Shown piece after piece: positions 10,147 through 19,404 of a stretch of DNA of 64,000 bases; position 1 is the stretch's first letter, and each line of letters begins with the position of its first letter. The stretch lies in NCBI RefSeq assembly GCF_988243305.1, contig NZ_OZ547136.1; one strand, given 5' to 3'. Made by a program: the position numbers and the translations under genes. The notes under the pieces were generated by a model, which did no database searches, was not told the DNA's origin, and worked only from the letters and a program-made list of their open reading frames with translations.

Positions 10147-10418
10147 GTATTCGTATTGAAATTGGCGAACGTTATGTCGTTACCAGTGACAGCTTTCAGT
10201 TTATTCTCCACGAGAAAAAGAGAGCGGAAAGCGGTAAAAACGCCGGTCAGGAATGGCTGGCGGTGGTTGGTTATTACCCGAAATTAGGCCAGCTCGTTTC
10301 CGGCCTGATGCATCACGATATTCTGACCGGAAGCGCAAAATCTTTTGCTGATTTAAACGCGCAGGTTGAGCAACTCAGCAAGCGTTGTTCAGAGGCTTTT
10401 GGCTCATATGGCCGTTAA
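10143..10418 (+). CDS. Hypothetical early protein
   Basis: 91-aa ORF overlapping gene A start. Confidence 0.45.
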   Translation: MSIRIEIGERYVVTSDSFQFILHEKKRAESGKNAGQEWLAVVGYYPKLGQLVSGLMHHDILTGSAKSFADLNAQVEQLSKRCSEAFGSYGR

Positions 10419-12684
10419 AGCCTCCGGGCGTTTTGTCCCTCCGTCAGCATTTACCGCAGGCACCGGTAAGGCGTTTACCGGTGCTTATGCATGGAACGCG
10501 CCACGCGAGGATGTCGGGCGCGAAAGACCTCTTACACGTGACGAGATGCGTCAGGTGCAAGGTGTTTTATCCACGATTAACCGCCTGCCTTACTTTTTGC
10601 GCTCGCTGTTTACTTCACGCTATGACTACATCCGGCGCAATAAAAGCCCGGTGCACGGGTTTTATTTCCTCACATCTACTTTTCAGCGTCGTTTATGGCC
10701 GCGCATTGAGCGTGTGAATCAGCGCCATGAAATGAACACCGACGCGTCGTTGCTGTTTCTGGCAGAGCGTGACCACTATGCGCGCCTGCCGGGAATGAAT
10801 GACAAGGAGCTGAAAAAGTTTGCCGCCCGTATCTCATCGCAGCTTTTCATGATGTATGAGGAACTCTGCGATGCATGGGTTGATGCGCATGGTGAAAAAG
10901 AATCGCTGTTTACGGATGAGGCGCAGGCTCACCTGTATGGTCATGTTGCTGGCGCTGCACGTGCTTTCAATATTTCCCCGCTCTACTGGAAAAAATACCG
11001 TAAAGGACAGATGACCACGAGGCAGGCATATTCTGCCATTGCCCGCCTGTTTAACGATGAGTGGTGGATTCATCAGCTTAAAGGCCAGCGTATGCGCTGG
11101 CATGAGGCGTTACTGATAGCTGTCGGGGAGGTCAATAAAGACCGTTCTCCTTATGCCAGTAAACACGCCATTCGTGATGTGCGTGCGCGCCGCCAGGCAA
11201 ATCTGGAATTTCTTAAATCGTGTGACCTTGAAAACAGGGAAACCGGCGAGCGCATCGACCTTATCAGTAAGGTGATGGGCAGTATTTCTAATCCTGAAAT
11301 TCGCCGGATGGAGCTGATGAACACCATTGCCGGTATTGAGCGTTACGCCGCCGCAGAGGGTGATGTGGGGATGTTTATCACGCTGACCGCGCCGTCAAAG
11401 TATCACCCGACACGTCAGGTCGGAAAAGGCGAAAGTAAAACCGTTCAGCTTAATCACGGCTGGAACGATGAGGCATTTAATCCAAAGGATGCGCAGCGTT
11501 ATCTCTGCCGTATCTGGAGCCTGATGCGCACGGCATTCAAGGATAATGATTTACAGGTCTACGGTTTGCGAGTCGTCGAGCCACACCACGACGGAACGCC
11601 GCACTGGCATATGATGCTTTTTTGTCATCCACGCCAGCGTAACCAGATTATCGAAATCATGCGTCGCTATGCGCTCAAAGAGGATGGCGACGAAAGAGGA
11701 GCCGCGCGAAACCGTTTTCAGGCAAAACACCTTAACCGGGGCGGTGCTGCGGGATATATCGCGAAATACATTTCAAAAAACATCGACGGCTATGCACTGG
11801 ATGGTCAGCTCGATAACGACACCGGCAGGCCGCTGAAAGACACTGCAGCGGCTGTTACCGCATGGGCGTCAACGTGGCGCATTCCGCAATTTAAAACGGT
11901 TGGCCTGCCGACAATGGGGGCTTACCGTGAACTACGCAAATTGCCTCGCGGCGTCAGCATTGCTGATGAGTTTGACGAGCGCGTCGAGGCTGCACGCGCC
12001 GCCGCAGACGGTGGTGATTTTGCGCTGTATATCAGCGCGCAGGGCGGGGCAAATGTCCCGCGCGATTGTCAGACTGTCAGGGTCGCCCGTAGTCTGTCGG
12101 ATGACGTTAACGAGTACGAGGAAGAAGTCGAGAGAGTGGTCGGCATTTACGCGCCGCATCTCGGCGCGCGTCATATTCATATCACCAGAACGACGGACTG
12201 GCGCATTGTGCCGAAAGTTCCGGTCGTTGAGCCTTTGACTTTAAAAAGCGGCATCGCCGCGCCTCGGAGTCCTGTCAATAACTGTGGAAAGCTCACCGGT
12301 GGTGATACTTCGTTACCGGCTCCCACACCTTCTGAGCACGCCGCAGCAGTGCTTAATCTGGTTGATGACGATGTTATCGAATGGAATGACCCGGAGGTCG
12401 TGAGGGCGCTCAGGGGCGCATTAAAACACGACCGGAGAACGCCAAACCGTCAGCAAAGAAACGGAAGCCCGTTAAAACCGCATGAAATTGCACCATCGGC
12501 CAGACTGACCCGGTCGGAACGATTGCAAATTACCCGTATCCGCGTTGATCTCGCTCAGAACGGTATCAGGCCGCAACGATGGGAGCTTGAGGCGCTGGCG
12601 CGTGGCGCGACCGTAAATTATGACGGGAAACCTTTCACTTATCAGGTCGCTGATGATTGGCCGGGATTTTTGTTACCCATTTGA
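10408..12684 (+). CDS. P2 gpA-type rolling-circle replication initiator endonuclease
   Basis: ~758 aa from ATG 10408 (ORF-track frame opens 10366); HxH and tyrosine-containing motifs (PHHDGTPHWHMMLF, AGYIAKYISKN). Confidence 0.85.
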   Translation: MAVKASGRFVPPSAFTAGTGKAFTGAYAWNAPREDVGRERPLTRDEMRQVQGVLSTINRLPYFLRSLFTSRYDYIRRNKSPVHGFYFLTSTFQRRLWPRIERVNQRHEMNTDASLLFLAERDHYARLPGMNDKELKKFAARISSQLFMMYEELCDAWVDAHGEKESLFTDEAQAHLYGHVAGAARAFNISPLYWKKYRKGQMTTRQAYSAIARLFNDEWWIHQLKGQRMRWHEALLIAVGEVNKDRSPYASKHAIRDVRARRQANLEFLKSCDLENRETGERIDLISKVMGSISNPEIRRMELMNTIAGIERYAAAEGDVGMFITLTAPSKYHPTRQVGKGESKTVQLNHGWNDEAFNPKDAQRYLCRIWSLMRTAFKDNDLQVYGLRVVEPHHDGTPHWHMMLFCHPRQRNQIIEIMRRYALKEDGDERGAARNRFQAKHLNRGGAAGYIAKYISKNIDGYALDGQLDNDTGRPLKDTAAAVTAWASTWRIPQFKTVGLPTMGAYRELRKLPRGVSIADEFDERVEAARAAADGGDFALYISAQGGANVPRDCQTVRVARSLSDDVNEYEEEVERVVGIYAPHLGARHIHITRTTDWRIVPKVPVVEPLTLKSGIAAPRSPVNNCGKLTGGDTSLPAPTPSEHAAAVLNLVDDDVIEWNDPEVVRALRGALKHDRRTPNRQQRNGSPLKPHEIAPSARLTRSERLQITRIRVDLAQNGIRPQRWELEALARGATVNYDGKPFTYQVADDWPGFLLPI

Positions 12685-12942
12685 GTAAAAATACAGCGTG
12701 ATTTTATATGTCTTTGAATGGATTATGCGAAACACCTCTAAGGTAGATGAGGAGCAATAGCGTGTTGAATCAGAAGGCTAAATTGTATTGAATCGTTAGC
12801 ATGTAATTGAAGGCAGCTATTTGATTCGAGTCATAAAAGAGCATCTATTTCGGTTAATAAAACCATTGCGAGTGACTTTATGTCGAAGCATAATTCATCT
12901 CGAGCGAAGTCTTGCTAGTCTTTCATCGGATTGATGACGGGC

Positions 12943-12975
12943 GCAAAAAAACCACCCTGGCAGGTGGTTTTTTTG
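12943..12975. terminator. Bidirectional rho-independent terminator
   Basis: A-run, accacc-ctggca-ggtggt hairpin, T-run. Confidence 0.5.
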
Positions 12976-12986
12976 TTTGAAGCATA

Positions 12987-13100
12987 CTAAAGAAAAATAC
13001 TTACATGGATATTACTGACGTTTACTGACAAACCACTCGGACTACCATATGGATAGCCAAAGAGGGCCAGAACGAGAATGCAGTAATAGCACTTCTTCAT
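12987..13100 (-). CDS. Hypothetical 37-aa hydrophobic peptide (MKKCYYCILVLALFGYPYGSPSGLSVNVSNIHVSIFL)
   Basis: ATG with AGGAGG 5-10 nt upstream; terminator immediately downstream on the same strand. Confidence 0.3.
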   Translation of the reverse strand: MKKCYYCILVLALFGYPYGSPSGLSVNVSNIHVSIFL

Positions 13101-13822
13101 ATCGCCTCCTGTAAGCAGAGGGCAATTTCCGCCGATATATGCGCTTCTAAGGCGGAGTGACTATTGAGCGAAGTCTTGCCCTGAAATAATGCTCTGTTTA
13201 AACGCAAAGTGATCTGGCATATCACCGAACAGAGGACCTGAACAACACAACATATAGTATGTCGTTGTTTCTGGTTGCATTTTATGTTGTGTAATACTGG
13301 TTTTGCATCAAGGATGTTTGAGCTTTTTTTGATATAGCTCAAAGTAAAAAGCAGAGACTACGGATGATAAGGTCTTGAAAGCAATGTAAATTTTTTAAAG
13401 TTGTGAGTGGCTAGAAATGCACAGTTTCAATATGGCGGATTTAAACAAGTAATTAAAAATAGCGACACAAATTCCAATAAAATCATTAAGTTGCGTTTTC
13501 TGTGGAAACTTCGGTGACTCTGAAATTTTCTTTTAGTATCGCTGAGGTTTAACAACTCGCTGCGCAAGTAGTTAGTGTTTTTTTTAACTCAATATTCTGA
13601 TTTATAAGGTTTTTTATAAATCGTGGGCTGGTTGCGCATATTCATCTCGTGTTATCAGCAAAGATAAGCTCTATATGCAGAACTGAATGCATATATGATG
13701 TCGAAAATGTTATGGGAAAACGTGGATTAGTGTTATAGTAATGGCTGAAAAACAGCCTTGACATAAAATAACAACTGTGATATGGCTGTGCATACTTAAC
13801 TTTTTTAACGTAGGAGGCAACC

Positions 13823-14308
13823 ATGAGCTATGCAGCTAAAAAACTGCTTGACCGCTATTGGGATCGCCGACTACCTGTCGATCCGTTTAAGCTTGCTAAA
13901 GCGTGGGGTGCTCGTGTTGAAGCACTTGAGGAATCGGCTTATAACAACGATGGGTTAAGCGGTCTGGCTGTCATCAAAAAGGGTGTCCATAGGATTTATT
14001 TTGATTCTAGTGAACATTCTAATCGTCAACGTTTTACTGTTGCACACGAGTTAGGTCATCATGTGCTGGGGCATACCCAGGACGGAGAGTACCATCGGGA
14101 TAATGTCGGGAATTATTCAACAGGTGCTCGTGATTACCGTGAGGTTGAAGCAAACAAGTTTGCTGCTGAGTTGTTAATGCCTGAGTCTGCTATACGTCAA
14201 TTGGTATCCAGAGAAGGTATTGATAGCACTTTGAGATTAGCAAGCATCTTTAATGTATCAGAAGCCGCTATGCATTGGCGCTTAAAGAGCTTAGGAATGG
14301 CTTATTAA
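13823..14308 (+). CDS. ImmA/IrrE-family HEXXH zinc metallopeptidase-like protein (161 aa)
   Basis: HELGHHVLGH plus downstream E (FAAELLMPE); AGGAGG SD; promoter-like TTGACA at 13761; AT-rich cargo. Confidence 0.75.
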   Translation: MSYAAKKLLDRYWDRRLPVDPFKLAKAWGARVEALEESAYNNDGLSGLAVIKKGVHRIYFDSSEHSNRQRFTVAHELGHHVLGHTQDGEYHRDNVGNYSTGARDYREVEANKFAAELLMPESAIRQLVSREGIDSTLRLASIFNVSEAAMHWRLKSLGMAY

Positions 14309-14374
14309 TTAGCCTTTAACTTTTAACCTGTTTAAAATCACCTTTACGTTTGTACATGTAAGGGTGATTTTTTT

Positions 14375-14974
14375 ATGGCTGATATTGATTTATCTGGACA
14401 GTCCCCAGAGCAAGGAACCACTCCTAAGGGCGATTTAGATCCTGATATCCTTATAAGGCGAGATAGACGGGATGGTATAGAGCGTAGAAGTATGCGATTA
14501 GTGCTCTCTGCCGTTGTGCTTTGTTTTGCTTGTACATTTCTATGGCAGGGGCTTAACTTTGCTTTGGCTGTTGGAAATGGCTTGCTGGAAGCGAAAAGCA
14601 GTATTGCCGCAGCGATAACACAAAAAGTAGATACACAAACTTGTGTTTCAGCAGAAAAATGTTCTGCTTTATCTTCGGATCCGAAGATGGCTGATGAGAG
14701 GATAACACCATCTTCAGACACTAATAAAGTTAGAAAATCTATTTCTGGTTTATCCACCGATTGGTTATCGGCCAGTTCTCTAATAGCTATTGTTGCATTC
14801 ATCCTTGGTGTGGGTTTAACTTTGCTTTTGACTCTTCTTAAATCAGCATTTCAACACCCGACAGATAAAGACTTTAGAACAAAGTCGACATCTAATACTA
14901 TTGAGTTGGCCACGCCAATCAGTGAATTAATAATTGGTGTTCTGAATATAATTAAAGACAAACTATCTAAGTAA
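14375..14974 (+). CDS. Hypothetical membrane protein, two predicted TM helices (199 aa)
   Basis: Hydrophobic segments ~res 40-66 and 130-155; start codon sits in T-run of upstream terminator hairpin. Confidence 0.6.
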   Translation: MADIDLSGQSPEQGTTPKGDLDPDILIRRDRRDGIERRSMRLVLSAVVLCFACTFLWQGLNFALAVGNGLLEAKSSIAAAITQKVDTQTCVSAEKCSALSSDPKMADERITPSSDTNKVRKSISGLSTDWLSASSLIAIVAFILGVGLTLLLTLLKSAFQHPTDKDFRTKSTSNTIELATPISELIIGVLNIIKDKLSK

Positions 14975-15056
14975 AGCATTAGTTGTGATTTTTTATTGGT
15001 TTTAGTGATAATACATCTCCAGTACTTATTGTTACTGGAGAGTATTTTTAGTCGTT

Positions 15057-15998
15057 TTATATTTTTAATGTTAGTGAATGATATTCACGAGAGTTCACGT
15101 TCGATGTGATGTAATCGGGGGCGTTAACACCAAGAATCGCAACGAGTAATCGGCAAATTAAAGCCTGCATTTGTTGTAATATGTCATCTCCATATTGATA
15201 ATTGTTAATAGTGGTAAAGCCAAGTGGTTGACCATGAAACATAGCTTCATGAAAGTTTTCATTGCGGATGTTTGTAATGTTTTTTTTACCTGTAACCCAT
15301 GATGGTCGTGGTATTCCATAAGTTTTGCAGATCCACTTCAAGCGCCTGGAGTGATTTAGAGTCTTTTCTGTACACTTGTTCTTTTCTGCCCATGTTAAAG
15401 CAAAGCAACTATCCAGTGCCATATAAAGATACTGGAATTTTTCGAAGCTAAGGTATTGTGGGTTTTGGGATAAAAATAGTGCATGCACTATTGCTGCTAT
15501 ATTTATTGGTGCGTGTTTGGTTTTTGTCTCGCTAGACATGTATTTGAGTGCTAATTCTATAACCTCTTTTTCAGAGCACTTGACCAGAATAAAGTCAGTT
15601 AATTTGCTGGGTTTTATTGGGGTTGCGTCTAAAAAACCGGCATCAGTAGTTGTTAATCTTATCCCTTTGAAAAAAGACAGACACCACACAGCAAAATTGA
15701 GAGTTTCTAGTGAAGATGTATTTTTTAATTTTAGTGAGTGTGTTTTGGGTAAGCCAAATACTCGTTGGCTAAAAGGCATTGTGGATATGCCTCCATTGAG
15801 GTTATATACTTCTTGGTTTCCTGGGTATATCCAACCGTTAATAACATTTCTGTGATTGTTTATAAGATTTGTTTTTTCCGCTAGACCGGGTAAAGTAAGT
15901 AAAGAAAAATCATCAGTTTCAACGTTAACTTCTACTGGATAGTATCCAAACTCAGCTTCAATATCATTGGATTGCTGTTCGTCAACTTTACCTTGCAT
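15057..15998 (-). CDS. Hypothetical protein, 313 aa, unknown function (candidate phage-exclusion effector)
   Basis: Long ORF in AT-rich DNA (sampled lines roughly 35-40% GC vs >50% flanks), GGAG SD, convergent with membrane-protein gene; R-x4-H at ~245-250. Confidence 0.65.
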   Translation of the reverse strand: MQGKVDEQQSNDIEAEFGYYPVEVNVETDDFSLLTLPGLAEKTNLINNHRNVINGWIYPGNQEVYNLNGGISTMPFSQRVFGLPKTHSLKLKNTSSLETLNFAVWCLSFFKGIRLTTTDAGFLDATPIKPSKLTDFILVKCSEKEVIELALKYMSSETKTKHAPINIAAIVHALFLSQNPQYLSFEKFQYLYMALDSCFALTWAEKNKCTEKTLNHSRRLKWICKTYGIPRPSWVTGKKNITNIRNENFHEAMFHGQPLGFTTINNYQYGDDILQQMQALICRLLVAILGVNAPDYITSNVNSREYHSLTLKI

Positions 15999-16236
15999 AC
16001 ATTGCTCCGGTCAAAAATAGGCTCGATAATTCTCGTAAGCCTATCATGTTCGCAAAGTATCCATACCTGTGGATTTTGTAAATTTAAGTTGATTTGTCAT
16101 TAAATAAGCCGTTGCATGCAACAAGTGAATGTTTTTGCATGCGTCGGGGATGTCCGTTCAGGCTGCGTGCGGTCAGGACTGGTGCGGATCCATAGTATCT
16201 ATGCAACTGCATTAAAACCGCCCCATGAAGCGGGCG

Positions 16237-16255
16237 GGCGAGGCGGGGAAAGCAC
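16237..16255 (+). other. Phage cos site (19-nt cohesive end GGCGAGGCGGGGAAAGCAC)
   Basis: Matches recalled P2 cohesive-end sequence; located between cargo island and portal gene. Confidence 0.6.
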
Positions 16256-16395
16256 TGCGCGCTGGCGGTGGTGCTGATTTTATTTTTTCAGCGTCTCAGC
16301 GCGTCGTGACGGCGTTTGGATTGTGCGCCGGGGCGTTGGTGTGTCTGTGGGGTGTTTTGTGCGGTGGTGAGCGTGTGAGGGCGTGATGACGGGGT

Positions 16396-16420
16396 GTAAA
16401 AAAGCCGCCCGCAGGCGGCG
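16396..16420 (-). terminator. Rho-independent terminator downstream of portal gene
   Basis: gccgcc-cgca-ggcggc hairpin followed by T-run on minus strand. Confidence 0.45.
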
Positions 16421-16424
16421 ATGT

Positions 16425-17459
16425 TCAGCCGTTGTCGGTGTCCAGTGAGTAGTTTTTAAAGCGGATGACCTCCTGACCGAGCCAGCCGTTTATCTCGCGG
16501 ATCCTGTCCTGTAACGGGATAAGCTCATTGCGGACAAAGACCTTTGCCACTTTCTCAATATCACCCAGCGACCCGACGTTCTCCGGCTTGCCGCCCATCA
16601 ACTGAAAAGGGATGCGGTGCGCGTCCAGCAGGTCTGCGGCGCTGGCTTTTTTGATATTAAAAAAATCGTCCTTCGTTGCCACTTCACTGAGCGGGATAAT
16701 TTTAATGCCGTCGGCTTTCCCTTGCGGGGCATAGAGAAACAGATTTTTAAAGTTGTTGCGGCCTTTCGACTTCACCATGTTTTCGCGGAGCATTTCGATA
16801 TCGTTGCGATCCTGCACGGCATCAGTGACGTACATGATGTATCCGGCATGTGCGCCGTTTTCGTAATACTTGCGGCGGAACAGCGTGGCCGACTCATTCA
16901 GCCAGGCAGAGTTAAGGGCGCTGAGATATTCCGGCAGGCCATACAGCTCCTGATTAATATCCGGCTCCAGCAGGTGAAACACGGAGCCGGGCGCGAAAGG
17001 TGTCGGCTCATGGAAGGACGGCACCCACCAGTAAACATCCTCTTCCACGCCACGGCGGGTATATTTTGCCGGTGAGGTTTCCAGTCTGATGACCTTACCG
17101 GTGGTGCTGTAACGCTTTTCCAGAAACGCATTACCGAACACCAGAAAATCCAGCACAAAGCGGCTGAAATCCTGCTGGGAAAGCCACGGGTGCGGAATAA
17201 ACGTTGAAGCCAGAATATTACGTTTGACGTAAATCGGTGAGCTGTGATGTACGGCAGCACGCAGGCTTTTTGCCAGACCGGTAAAGCTGACCGGTGGCTC
17301 ATACCATCTGCCGTTACTGATGCACTCGACGTAATCCAGAATGTCACGGCGGTCGAGTACCGGCACCGGTTCACCAAAGGTGAATGCCTCCATTTTCGGG
17401 GCGCTGGCGGTCATTTTTTTTGCCGCAGGTTGCGGTGTTTTCCCTTTTTTCTTGCTCAT
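16425..17459 (-). CDS. Portal protein (P2 gpQ)
   Basis: 344 aa, P2 order and size. Confidence 0.9.
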   Translation of the reverse strand: MSKKKGKTPQPAAKKMTASAPKMEAFTFGEPVPVLDRRDILDYVECISNGRWYEPPVSFTGLAKSLRAAVHHSSPIYVKRNILASTFIPHPWLSQQDFSRFVLDFLVFGNAFLEKRYSTTGKVIRLETSPAKYTRRGVEEDVYWWVPSFHEPTPFAPGSVFHLLEPDINQELYGLPEYLSALNSAWLNESATLFRRKYYENGAHAGYIMYVTDAVQDRNDIEMLRENMVKSKGRNNFKNLFLYAPQGKADGIKIIPLSEVATKDDFFNIKKASAADLLDAHRIPFQLMGGKPENVGSLGDIEKVAKVFVRNELIPLQDRIREINGWLGQEVIRFKNYSLDTDNG

Positions 17460-19231
17460 TAGTAAAACTCCAGAATGGTGGATGTCAGCGGGGTGCTGAT
17501 ACCGGCGGTGAGTGGCTCATTTAACAGGGCGTGCATGGTCGCCCAGGCGAGATCGGCGTGGCTGGCTTCCTCGCTGCGGCTGGCCTCATAGGTGGCGCTG
17601 CGTCCGCTGCTGGTCATGGTCTTGCGGATAGCCATAAACGAGCTGGTGATGTCGGTGGCGCTGACGTCATATTCCAGACAGCCACGGCGAATAACGTCTT
17701 TTGCCTTGAGCACCATTGCGGTTTTCATTTCCGGCGTGTAGCGGATATCGCGTGCGGCGGGATAGAACGAGCGAACGAGCTGGAACACGCCGACACCGAG
17801 GCCGGTGGCATCAATTCCGATGTATTCGACGTTGTATTTTTCGGTGAGTTTGCGGATGGATTCAGCCTGGGTGGCAAAGTCCATGCCTTTCCACTGGTGA
17901 CGCTCAAGTATTCTGAATTTGCCACCGGCCACCACCGGCGGTGCCAGCACCACGCATCCGGCACTGTCGCCACGGTGTGACGGGTCGTAACCAATCCAGA
18001 CCGGGCGGGAGCCGAACGGATTCGCGGCAAACGGCGCATAGTCTTCCCATTCTTCCAGCGTGTCGACCATGCAGCGTTGCAGCTCCTCGAACGGGAACAC
18101 CGACGCCTTGTCGTCAACAAATTCACACATGAACAGGTTTTTAAAATCGTCGGCGCTGTTTTCGCGTTTAAGCTGCTCAATGTCGAACAGCGTGCAGCCA
18201 CCTTTCAGGGCGTCCTCAATGGTGACAATCTGCCGCCACTGACCGTCCGCACAGAGAAGCCCACCGGCAAGAGCGTTATGACTGACGTCGATTTCCACGC
18301 GTTCGGCGGCGCTGGCGCGTCCCCGGTTGAACAGTTCACCCGACCAGAACGGGTAGGCGTCGTGCGCCAGCGTGGACGGGGTGGAGAAATAGGTCGAGCG
18401 CAGGTGACTCTGTGAGGCCATACCTGATGCCACCTTACGCAGTACCTGAAAATTCGGTATCCAGAAAATCTCGTCGACGTACAGGTCGCCGTTATGGCTC
18501 TGCGCGGTGTTGGAGTTGGTGCCGAGAAAAATCAGTTTTGCGCCGTTATTGCCCAGGACAATTGGGTCACCGGTCAGGTCAACGTCAACCAGCCGGGCAA
18601 AGGCGATGATGTATTCGCGGAACACATACGCCTGCGTTTTACTGGCCGACAGAAAAATCTGGTTATGACCGGTTTTCAGGGCGCGCAGCAGCGCCTCGCG
18701 GGAAAAATAAAACGTCGCGCCAATCTGGCGGGATTTCAGGATATCGCGGATGCGGTGCTCAAGCCCTGCGCGATACCAGTGCAACTGATATTCGAAAGAC
18801 TGCTCAAAGAAAATCTGCTCCAGCTTTTCGATGGCCTCGTCACTGAAAAAATTCTTTTTCGGTTTGCGACGCCCGCCTTTGTTGCGGTTAGCGACGTTCG
18901 GATTAAAGTCTGCCTCGTTGCCGGTCTGACTGTAACGGTTGACCCGTGCCAGTCGTTCAATCTGGCGTCCGAGCAGGTCAATTTCCTTGAAGTCACCGCC
19001 GGTTTTCTGCGGTTTGATGATGAGCTGGGTCAGCCGCGCTTCCAGACTCATTTCGACACGGCTGATGGGGGCAACGCTGTCCCAGCCGTCGCGCTGTTTC
19101 CAGCTCTGCACCGTCGGGCGTTTCATCTGCAACATGGCGGCAATCTGCGGCACGGAAAATCCCTGCCAGTACAGCAGCGCCGCCTGACGACGCGGGTCGT
19201 GTAAAAGAGTGGTGTCTGTGGTGATGGTCAT
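17459..19231 (-). CDS. Terminase large subunit (P2 gpP)
   Basis: 590 aa from ATG at 19231 (MTITTDTT...); ORF-track frame extends to 19261. Confidence 0.9.
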   Translation of the reverse strand: MTITTDTTLLHDPRRQAALLYWQGFSVPQIAAMLQMKRPTVQSWKQRDGWDSVAPISRVEMSLEARLTQLIIKPQKTGGDFKEIDLLGRQIERLARVNRYSQTGNEADFNPNVANRNKGGRRKPKKNFFSDEAIEKLEQIFFEQSFEYQLHWYRAGLEHRIRDILKSRQIGATFYFSREALLRALKTGHNQIFLSASKTQAYVFREYIIAFARLVDVDLTGDPIVLGNNGAKLIFLGTNSNTAQSHNGDLYVDEIFWIPNFQVLRKVASGMASQSHLRSTYFSTPSTLAHDAYPFWSGELFNRGRASAAERVEIDVSHNALAGGLLCADGQWRQIVTIEDALKGGCTLFDIEQLKRENSADDFKNLFMCEFVDDKASVFPFEELQRCMVDTLEEWEDYAPFAANPFGSRPVWIGYDPSHRGDSAGCVVLAPPVVAGGKFRILERHQWKGMDFATQAESIRKLTEKYNVEYIGIDATGLGVGVFQLVRSFYPAARDIRYTPEMKTAMVLKAKDVIRRGCLEYDVSATDITSSFMAIRKTMTSSGRSATYEASRSEEASHADLAWATMHALLNEPLTAGISTPLTSTILEFY

Positions 19232-19404
19232 GAATACCTCGCCGTGATGAATACACGGCAAGGCTACTGAGTCGCGCCCCGCGATTCGCTAAGGTGCTGT
19301 TGTGTCAGTGATAAGCCATCCGGGACTGATGGCGGAGGATGCGCATCGTCGGGAAACTGATGCCGACATGTGACTCCTCTAATCACTATTCAGGACTCCT
19401 GACA

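What the first reader, a model, noticed from the sequence alone, without database searches (positions are those of the whole stretch)
13823..14974. ImmA/IrrE-type metallopeptidase paired with a two-TM membrane protein, with no partner HTH repressor
ImmA/IrrE peptidases (HEXXH, here HELGHHVLGH...E) normally sit beside an XRE-family repressor that they cleave. No HTH gene is adjacent here. Instead the peptidase gene has a strong AGGAGG SD and a promoter-like TTGACA at 13761, and is followed by a membrane protein with two hydrophobic helices. A protease next to a possible membrane-disrupting effector is a layout seen in abortive-infection modules, but the function here is inference only.
Basis: partly seen in the sequence, partly recalled or inferred. 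Interest (0 to 1): 0.7.

Follow-up and report, generated by a model that had tools for sequence, protein, structure and literature searches.

The report
Short ImmA-type peptidase with membrane-toxin partner
A P2-like prophage carries, in its known cargo/defence hotspot, a strictly linked two-gene cassette (small zinc peptidase plus two-helix membrane protein) that is a relative of an already validated RosmerTA-type toxin-antitoxin/phage-defence pair, so it is real but not a new kind of system.

Summary
Window 13823-14308 encodes a 161-aa Peptidase_M78 (HELGH 75-79, E107). Window 14375-14974 encodes a 199-aa protein with two hydrophobic helices. No HTH gene is adjacent.

The pair lies in the gpA-gpQ cargo hotspot of a P2-like prophage. 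It is a self-contained cassette. Every locus fetched through either protein had the partner next to it on the same strand. These loci span Enterobacterales, Vibrio, Aeromonas, Acinetobacter, Pseudomonas, Cupriavidus and Maridesulfovibrio, on phages, plasmids and islands.

In most gammaproteobacterial copies a terminator-like hairpin containing the membrane gene's Shine-Dalgarno sequence sits immediately before its ATG. At least six different stem sequences keep this fold.

The peptidase is a full-length homologue (38% identity, E 1.6e-29) of RmrA from Gordonia phage Kita. There an HTH-less M78 antitoxin precedes a two-TM, membrane-depolarising toxin that gives narrow phage defence (Ernits 2023).

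Rousset 2022 had already cloned the TA280 P2-hotspot variant of this cassette ("Peptidase + TM", pFR104). It is listed among tested systems that were not validated on eight phages.

Best reading: a RosmerTA-like toxin-antitoxin or abortive-infection module. It is a new member of a known kind. The mechanism of neutralisation and the trigger are unknown. Interest is moderate to low.

The parts
13704..13822 (+). Conserved 5' leader of the cassette. It holds the promoter-like -35 TTGACA (13758-13763), a 17-nt spacer, a TG-extended weak -10 TATGGC (13781-13786) and the SD AGGAGG (13812-13817).
   Evidence: Homology to other carriers starts at about 13704-13710 in six other P2-like phages and in Pectobacterium. 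The -35 element is kept in L002 and L004. The site was not reported by the consensus promoter scan. No LexA-box-like site with at most 1 mismatch lies here.
13823..14308 (+). Gene for a 161-aa HTH-less ImmA/IrrE (Peptidase_M78) zinc metallopeptidase. It is a short RmrA-like protein with HELGH at 75-79 and the third zinc ligand at E107.
   Evidence: Family matches. Closest solved structures by sequence are CapP 7T5T (7.6e-7) and IrrE. The AF2 model has pLDDT about 90, and Foldseek top hits are CapP and IrrE/PprI. It is 37.9% identical over 161 aa to Gordonia phage Kita RmrA (E 1.6e-29).
14334..14374 (+). Intergenic terminator-like hairpin (stem 14334-14371, core 14338-14367) running into a T7 tract (14368-14374) that abuts the ATG. 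The 3' arm contains the SD-like AAGGGTGA (14360-14367) of the membrane gene.
   Evidence: Folding energy is -18.4 kcal/mol with z = -5.8 against 200 shuffles. The same hairpin + U-tract + AUG layout recurs with at least six different stem sequences in other genera.
14375..14974 (+). Gene for a 199-aa two-TM inner-membrane protein, the putative toxin/effector. It has an acidic disordered N-tail with a D-L-S-G motif, TM1 at about 41-63, a variable loop with two Cys, a nearly invariant TM2 (AFILGVGLTLLLTLLK) and a C-terminal amphipathic helix.
   Evidence: Sequence. phrog_8096 only, with no Pfam, NCBIfam or PADLOC family. Alignments. The family has only 69 clusters at 50% identity among 1.84e9 representatives. 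AF2 model. Hydropathy.
15016..15041 (.). Bidirectional terminator-like hairpin that closes the two-gene operon. It is shared with the convergent ORF313.
   Evidence: Reported on both strands by the terminator scan.

Best explanation
This is a RosmerTA-like toxin-antitoxin / abortive-infection cassette carried as cargo in the gpA-gpQ hotspot of a P2-like prophage. The first gene makes a small cytoplasmic ImmA/RmrA-type zinc peptidase without an HTH or sensor domain. The second makes a small inner-membrane protein with both tails in the cytoplasm.

Inferred mechanism:
1. In the lysogen the peptidase is made in excess. It has a strong SD, while the intergenic terminator and the hairpin that sequesters the second gene's SD throttle the membrane protein.
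2. The peptidase keeps the membrane protein harmless by binding or cleaving one of its cytoplasmic tails.
3. When a particular phage infects, neutralisation fails and the membrane protein depolarises or permeabilises the inner membrane. This aborts the infection.

Shown here: gene content, strict linkage, co-inheritance, conserved catalytic residues, the conserved hairpin, carriage on mobile elements and in defence neighbourhoods, and homology of the peptidase to a validated RmrA.

Inferred only: toxicity of the membrane protein, the direction of control, any proteolysis of the partner, and the trigger.
For: (1) Locus. The cassette lies between the P2 gpA replication endonuclease and the gpQ portal. 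This is the defence hotspot described in PMC9122126. The island has low GC, 35-42%.

(2) Linkage.
- All loci found through the membrane protein have a 157-170-aa M78 gene directly upstream on the same strand.
- All loci found through peptidases of 45-51% identity have a two-TM protein of the same architecture directly downstream.
- Phage ACA1 (gp1/gp2) and Burkholderia phage Carl1 carry the same layout.
- Pairwise identities of the two proteins correlate across 19 pairs (Mantel r = 0.94, 0 of 5000 permutations reach it).

(3) Catalytic residues are invariant.

(4) Homology and precedent.
- The peptidase is 37.9% identical over its full length to Kita RmrA and has the same PADLOC signature.
- In Kita the M78 antitoxin gene is followed by a two-TM toxin.
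- That toxin depolarises E. coli membranes and gives narrow defence against two BASEL phages (PMC10440598).

(5) The hairpin, U-tract and AUG layout with the SD in the 3' arm is conserved through different stem sequences. This fits tight limitation of a toxic product.

(6) Defence neighbourhoods occur outside phages. A canonical RosmerTA lies 1.8 kb away in Serratia, and a dCTP deaminase is adjacent in Cupriavidus. The cassette follows the S24 CI repressor in P. aeruginosa prophages, as rexAB follows cI in lambda (the lambda comparison is my own knowledge).
Against: - The only published test of this cassette type (pFR104, TA280 variant, native promoter, eight coliphages) appears in the table of tested systems that were not validated.
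- No RmrT profile matches the membrane protein, and it has no detectable similarity to Kita RmrT. The toxin assignment therefore rests on architecture only.
- A fused-chain AlphaFold2 model did not order either tail of the membrane protein. Fused residues 163-205, which are the tail end of the peptidase, the linker and the first 14 residues of the N-tail, stay below pLDDT 50. This gives no support for docking.
- Kita RmrA neutralises its toxin only partly, and the complex is not predictable either.
- Nothing here shows toxicity or proteolysis.
Confidence: 0.55

Rival explanations
1. Proteolysis-gated effector. The peptidase is the infection sensor and activator, not the antitoxin. On infection it cleaves an autoinhibitory cytoplasmic tail of the membrane protein, for example at the conserved D-L-S-G N-tail motif or before the C-terminal helix. 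This releases a pore-former, as in the gasdermin, Pepco and EACC1 protease-effector modules.
For: The tails carry short conserved motifs within otherwise variable sequence. Catalytic residues are invariant. Protease-licensed pore-formers are an established defence logic (10.1101/2025.11.14.688446). Relatives CapP and IrrE are ssDNA-activated sensors.
Against: The 161-aa protein lacks the GAF domain and interdomain groove that bind ssDNA in CapP and IrrE. Matches cover only positions 8-153 of the 242-position capP profile. Known protease-effector modules use Ser or Cys proteases fused to sensors. The homologous Kita peptidase acts as the neutralising partner. The throttling hairpin makes more sense for a product that is toxic as made.
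Confidence: 0.17
2. Antirepressor or induction module. The peptidase cleaves a repressor encoded elsewhere, such as the prophage C repressor or that of a co-resident element. This would be the functional analogue of phage 186 Tum at the same locus. The membrane protein would be a co-regulated exclusion or signalling factor.
For: ImmA, IrrE and CapP relatives cleave HTH repressors. The homologue in Pseudoalteromonas phage ACA1 is annotated 'antirepressor'. Phage 186 has p95-tum-partial terminator-orf97 at the same position.
Against: There is no sequence similarity to Tum or Orf97. No LexA-box-like site lies in the promoter. The cassette occurs on a plasmid and in chromosomal islands, with no repressor or other HTH gene beside it. 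Its only constant partner is the membrane protein. The ACA1 annotation is by analogy, not by experiment.
Confidence: 0.08
3. A non-suicidal membrane function. Examples are superinfection exclusion at DNA entry, or another lysogenic-conversion role of the two-TM protein. The peptidase would act as its maturation or turnover protease.
For: The cassette sits in moron-type positions in several phage families: the P2 hotspot, after CI in Pseudomonas prophages, between mor and the lysis genes in Mu-like phages, and at a prophage end in Klebsiella. The periplasmic loop carries a conserved Cys pair in enterobacterial members. The eight-phage test was negative.
Against: Homology of the first gene to a validated antitoxin and the analogous toxin architecture argue against it. 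So does carriage on non-phage elements next to defence genes. The terminator and SD occlusion are typical of toxic products.
Confidence: 0.12

Closest known systems
RosmerTA of Gordonia phage Kita (RmrA_D25 / RmrT_D5; Ernits et al. 2023, PMC10440598)
   Same: An HTH-less M78 peptidase of about 160-180 aa is encoded first, followed by a small protein with an acidic N-tail and two TM helices. Both are phage-borne. The peptidases are homologous over their full length (37.9% identity, E 1.6e-29) and have the same PADLOC hit pattern.
   Different: The membrane partner has no detectable sequence or profile similarity to RmrT_D5. It is longer (199 vs 119 aa), with a periplasmic loop and a C-terminal amphipathic helix. 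The genes are separated by a terminator / SD-sequestering hairpin instead of overlapping by 4 nt. No toxicity or defence data exist for this cassette.
Canonical RosmerTA (Millman et al. 2022; PADLOC RmrT/RmrA)
   Same: [quoted passage not shown] RmrA profiles match the peptidase domain.
   Different: Canonical RmrA is about 360-400 aa with an N-terminal XRE HTH, and the toxin gene usually comes first, as in the Serratia example. Here there is no HTH, the peptidase comes first, and no RmrT profile matches.
'Peptidase + TM' candidate of the P2 hotspot (pFR104; Rousset et al. 2022, PMC9122126, Table S2B)
   Same: It is the same cassette and the same hotspot. The TA280 proteins equal the P2DC1/L002 variant, with peptidase 88% and membrane protein about 56-58% identical to the window copy.
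   Different: It is an allelic variant without the neighbouring ORF313. The authors annotated the second protein from an internal Met with 1 TM. It was listed as tested but not among the validated systems.
ImmA-ImmR, IrrE/PprI-DdrO and CapP-CapH peptidase-repressor pairs
   Same: They share the M78 fold and catalytic motif. CapP and IrrE are the closest solved structures.
   Different: There is no adjacent HTH substrate. The GAF sensor domain and the ssDNA-binding groove of CapP and IrrE are absent.
Protease-effector defence modules (bacterial gasdermin, Pepco, EACC1; Evans et al. 2025 preprint)
   Same: A protease gene is linked to a small membrane-active protein.
   Different: Those modules use Ser or Cys proteases fused to sensors and effector families unrelated to this one. 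No M78 + 2-TM pairing is described there.

Membership tests
Peptidase_M78 (ImmA/IrrE) metallopeptidases | Match to PF06114 with HEXXH plus a downstream Glu zinc ligand | tested here: met
   Pfam E 8e-21. HELGH at 75-79 and E107 are invariant in the family. The predicted fold matches CapP and IrrE.
ImmA-ImmR / CapP-CapH / IrrE-DdrO regulator pairs | Adjacent XRE-type HTH repressor that is the substrate | tested here: not met
   No HTH ORF is adjacent in the window. None is adjacent in the plasmid, island or most phage contexts. Only P. aeruginosa prophages have the phage's own S24 CI upstream.
CapP / IrrE | C-terminal GAF domain forming the ssDNA-binding interdomain groove | tested here: not met
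   The protein is 161 aa. It aligns only to positions 8-153 of the 242-position capP profile and to residues about 75-155 of the 291-aa CapP.
RosmerTA | Two-gene operon with a Zn-peptidase (RmrA) partner | tested here: met
   RmrA profiles match at up to 6e-17 over the peptidase region. The protein is a full-length homologue of the validated Kita RmrA. Linkage is strict.
RosmerTA | N-terminal HTH on RmrA (usual but not universal) | tested here: not met
   Matches start at profile position about 141-215 of 357-400, so the HTH part is missing. Kita RmrA also lacks it.
RosmerTA | Partner belongs to a recognised RmrT toxin family | tested here: not met
   No PADLOC family matches at E up to 1. There is no similarity to Kita RmrT_D5 by BLASTP or hhalign. 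Only the architecture is alike (acidic N-tail plus 2 TM helices).
RosmerTA | Toxin is toxic and the peptidase partner neutralises it | not testable with these tools
   This needs expression assays. It has been shown only for the Kita homologue.
RosmerTA / anti-phage defence system | Protection against phage infection | not testable with these tools
   In the literature, the TA280 variant (pFR104) was tested on eight phages and is not among the validated systems. Kita RmrTA protects against only 2 BASEL phages.
Phage 186 Tum antirepressor operon | Sequence similarity to Tum/Orf97 and a LexA-controlled promoter | tested here: not met
   BLASTP E values are 15 and 0.36. No LexA-box-like site with at most 1 mismatch lies at 13600-13830.
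Protease-licensed effector modules (gasdermin, Pepco, EACC1) | Ser/Cys protease fused to a sensor, with a cognate effector family | tested here: not met
   The protease here is a stand-alone metallopeptidase. The effector has no Pfam family.

The most novel reading that the evidence does not exclude
The cassette may be a distinct, widespread class in which a minimal ImmA-type peptidase controls a membrane pore-former by site-specific cleavage of a conserved cytoplasmic tail motif. A structured intergenic terminator / SD-occluding RNA would set or sense the toxin-to-peptidase ratio. That would make it a protease-based, not binding-based, 'antitoxin' mechanism that could explain how HTH-less RmrA proteins work.
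Probability: 0.15. Interest if true: 0.6.

Novelty: new member of a known kind. Interest (0 to 1): 0.35.

Why it matters
If confirmed, the cassette adds an E. coli/P2-borne, genetically tractable representative of the HTH-less RosmerTA type. How these peptidases neutralise membrane toxins, and what triggers them, is still unknown. The conserved hairpin gives a concrete, testable handle on how toxin dosage is controlled. It would also turn an unvalidated 'Peptidase + TM' hotspot entry into an annotated system that PADLOC-DB 2.0.0 models do not recognise.

Tried and rejected
- Rfam scan of 12000-16600: only sub-threshold chance matches.
- Pfam, NCBIfam and PADLOC on the membrane protein and ORF313: nothing.
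- PDB sequence search for ORF313: nothing.
- Foldseek of the membrane-protein model against viral structures: no match.
- Fused peptidase-linker-membrane protein AlphaFold2 with a paired alignment, to look for tail docking: the tails stayed disordered, so the result is uninformative.
I used per-sequence folds instead.
- Genome-contig scan: only one locus, because the derived peptide pattern was narrow.
- Look-up of P0041: not on record.
- Tum/Orf97 homology, claimed by analogy in the ACA1 paper: rejected.
- LexA control: rejected.
- The idea that the roughly 1-kb ORF-poor stretch upstream (12685-13703) belongs to the module or hides a lost repressor: rejected. Other carriers share homology only from about 13704 onward.
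- ORF313 as a third component: rejected as obligatory. Several carriers lack it, and P2-EC67 has it without the pair.

Full report
**Context.** The window carries a P2-like prophage. The replication endonuclease gpA is at 10366-12684 (+), the portal gpQ at 16425-17459 (-) and the terminase at 17459-19261 (-). An essentially identical locus in E. coli EC1 is annotated in the same way and sits next to cpxP.

The finding lies in the low-GC island (35-42%) between gpA and gpQ. This is the cos-proximal cargo and defence hotspot of P2-like phages described by Rousset et al. 2022 (PMC9122126).

The island holds four things:
- a roughly 1-kb ORF-poor stretch (12685-13703);
- the peptidase gene (13823-14308);
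- the membrane-protein gene (14375-14974);
- the convergent ORF313 (15057-15998, minus strand).

**Observation.** Both ORFs are real and are annotated in RefSeq.
- The first protein is a Peptidase_M78/ImmA-IrrE protein. Evidence: Pfam 8e-21, phrog_87 at 1.4e-32, PADLOC capP at 1e-30 and RmrA at 6e-17.
- HELGH is at residues 75-79 and the third zinc ligand is E107. These residues are invariant across the family.
- The closest solved structures are CapP (7T5T) and IrrE/PprI, by sequence and by predicted fold.
- The protein has only the N-terminal peptidase part. It lacks the GAF domain that forms the ssDNA-sensing groove in CapP and IrrE.
- AGGAGG is 5 nt from the ATG. It is followed by a weak, TG-extended -10 that the consensus scan did not score.
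- The second protein has two hydrophobic helices and belongs to no Pfam, NCBIfam or PADLOC family.
- No HTH gene is adjacent.

**The pair is a self-contained, mobile cassette.** Through the membrane protein I fetched loci from many sources:
- Pectobacterium, Serratia, an Enterobacter plasmid, Vibrio harveyi and Acinetobacter;
- seventeen viral contigs;
- Oceanisphaera.

Every one has a 157-170-aa M78 gene directly upstream on the same strand.

Going the other way, peptidases only 45-51% identical to the window copy came from:
- an Aeromonas Mu-like prophage;
- P. aeruginosa prophages;
- a Klebsiella prophage end;
- Cupriavidus;
- Maridesulfovibrio.

Each is followed immediately by a two-TM protein of the same build: an acidic N-tail with a D-L-S-G-like motif, TM1, a loop, TM2 and a C-terminal amphipathic helix. 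This holds even where sequence similarity to the window protein is gone.

Pairwise identities of the two proteins correlate across 19 pairs (Mantel r = 0.94, none of 5000 permutations reaches it). The peptidase is the more conserved partner (mean identity 54% vs 34%).

Homology between carriers starts about 115 nt upstream of the peptidase ATG and ends at the stop codon of the membrane gene. The upstream kilobase and ORF313 are therefore separate cargo. P2DC1/TA280-type phages have the pair without ORF313, and P2-EC67 has ORF313 without the pair.

In complete E. coli genomes the cassette occurs in 49 of 5426.

The membrane-protein family is small: 69 clusters at 50% identity among 1.84 billion representatives. 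Its TM2 (AFILGVGLTL) is almost invariant.

**A conserved RNA feature.** Between the two genes lies a hairpin (14334-14371, -18.4 kcal/mol, z = -5.8). It runs into a T7 tract that abuts the ATG. Its 3' arm contains the SD-like AAGGGTGA.

The same hairpin, U-tract and AUG layout recurs in these groups, each with a different stem sequence:

| Source | 5' arm ... 3' arm |
|---|---|
| Enterobacterial copies | UCACC...GGUGA |
| Vibrio | GCCCUCA...UGAGGGC |
| Aeromonas, Klebsiella and viral contig L039 | GCCACC...GGUGGC |
| Oceanisphaera | CCCUCUG...CAGAGGG |
| A viral contig (L038) | GCCACU...AGUGGC |
| Pseudoalteromonas phage ACA1 | AGCCCUU...AAGGGCU |

In Pseudomonas, Cupriavidus, Burkholderia phage Carl1, Maridesulfovibrio and Gordonia phage Kita the genes abut or overlap instead, and the Acinetobacter copy has a short (30-nt) unstructured gap. 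RNAalifold on an automatic alignment found no consensus because the stems are not alignable by sequence. The evidence is therefore the set of per-sequence folds.

I infer that this element terminates most transcripts after the peptidase gene and occludes the ribosome-binding site of the second gene. That would keep the membrane protein scarce relative to the peptidase.

**What is known already.**

1. Rousset et al. 2022 listed this arrangement among P2-hotspot systems. They cloned the TA280 variant with its native upstream region as pFR104, 'Peptidase + TM'. It appears in Table S2B ('additional tested systems'), not in Table S2A of validated systems. The text names only three other newly validated P2-hotspot systems.

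2. Ernits et al. 2023 (PMC10440598) validated a RosmerTA system from Gordonia phage Kita.
   - It consists of RmrA_D25, annotated as Peptidase_M78 only, followed by RmrT_D5, a transmembrane toxin.
   - The toxin rapidly depolarises and permeabilises E. coli membranes.
   - It is only partly neutralised by RmrA.
   - The pair protects against just two BASEL phages.

   The window peptidase is a full-length homologue of Kita RmrA (37.9% identity over 161 aa, E 1.6e-29). Kita RmrT has an acidic N-tail and two TM helices. Both peptidases give the same PADLOC pattern, and neither toxin is in PADLOC. The two toxins show no sequence or profile similarity to each other.

3. Canonical RosmerTA (Millman 2022) is defined as a Zn-peptidase antitoxin with a toxin of unknown function. 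Its RmrA normally carries an HTH, as in the Serratia example that lies 1.8 kb from the cassette.

**Interpretation.** The best-supported reading is a RosmerTA-like toxin-antitoxin / abortive-infection cassette. The short peptidase would be the neutralising partner and the two-TM protein the membrane toxin.

Supporting evidence:
- homology to Kita RmrA;
- strict linkage and co-inheritance;
- invariant catalytic residues;
- the dosage-limiting hairpin;
- carriage in moron and defence positions of several phage families, a plasmid and islands next to a dCTP deaminase or a RosmerTA.

Evidence against or missing:
- the negative eight-phage test, which is weak evidence given the narrow range of the Kita system;
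- no direct evidence of toxicity or cleavage;
- no predicted docking of either tail in a fused-chain AlphaFold2 model.

Rival readings:
- **Protease-activated pore-former.** This is disfavoured by the missing sensor domain and by the Kita precedent.
- **Tum-like antirepressor.** There is no similarity to Tum or Orf97 and no LexA box. The cassette is also present, with no HTH gene beside it, on a plasmid and in chromosomal islands.
- **Non-suicidal membrane function.**

**Verdict.** It is a new member of a known kind (the HTH-less RosmerTA type) and had already been catalogued in the P2 hotspot. What remains open is how a stand-alone ImmA-type peptidase neutralises a membrane toxin, what triggers the system, and what role the conserved hairpin plays.

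Noticed in passing
window 12685-13703: About 1 kb between the gpA stop and the cassette boundary has no long ORF, yet it is 87% conserved in P2DC1/TA280-type phages and absent from other P2-like carriers of the pair. It contains a bidirectional terminator-like hairpin (about 12945-12975) and a direct repeat GAGCGAAGTCTTGC at about 12902 and 13167. It is probably a remnant of other cargo.
   Followed up: partly
window 12987-13100 (-): A small ORF of 37 aa (MKKCYYCILVLALFGYPYGSPSGLSVNVSNIHVSIFL) has a hydrophobic N-half, an AGGAGG SD, and the terminator just downstream. It is 96.8% conserved against L002/L035, with two synonymous codon changes and one non-synonymous change. It may be a small membrane peptide or a type-I-toxin-like gene. 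It is not annotated in RefSeq.
   Followed up: partly
window 15057-15998 (-): ORF313 (phrog_5937) has no Pfam, NCBIfam, PADLOC or PDB match. It is an independent hotspot cargo gene, since P2-EC67 carries it with ORF73/ORF226 instead. However, a homologue of 49% identity again lies convergent to the peptidase-TM pair in viral contig L034. Its function is unknown.
   Followed up: partly
L044 (phage 186) 3021-4464: At the same post-gpA locus, phage 186 has a LexA-controlled promoter p95, then tum, then a partial terminator t95a, then orf97 (annotated as blocking 186 infection), then t95b. This two-gene layout with an internal terminator parallels the cassette, but there is no sequence similarity.
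   Followed up: yes
L006 8463-10246; L021 4873-6504: Outside phages, the cassette sits near recognised defence genes. A canonical RosmerTA lies nearby in Serratia (RmrT 8.5e-59, RmrA 2.7e-145), and a dCTP deaminase is adjacent in Cupriavidus (PADLOC 1.2e-173).
   Followed up: yes
L023 3966-4555 (Oceanisphaera): The membrane-protein gene is split by a frameshift after a 22-codon N-tail that follows the conserved hairpin and ATG. It could be a pseudogene, a sequencing error, or an N-tail-less variant starting at a GTG.
   Followed up: no
L042 277-1520 (Pseudoalteromonas phage ACA1): gp1 and gp2 are the same peptidase-TM pair, with the conserved hairpin. gp1 is annotated 'antirepressor' and is described in the paper as homologous to 186 Tum. 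I could not reproduce that similarity using the homologous window peptidase (44% identical to gp1); ACA1 gp1 itself was not compared with Tum.
   Followed up: yes
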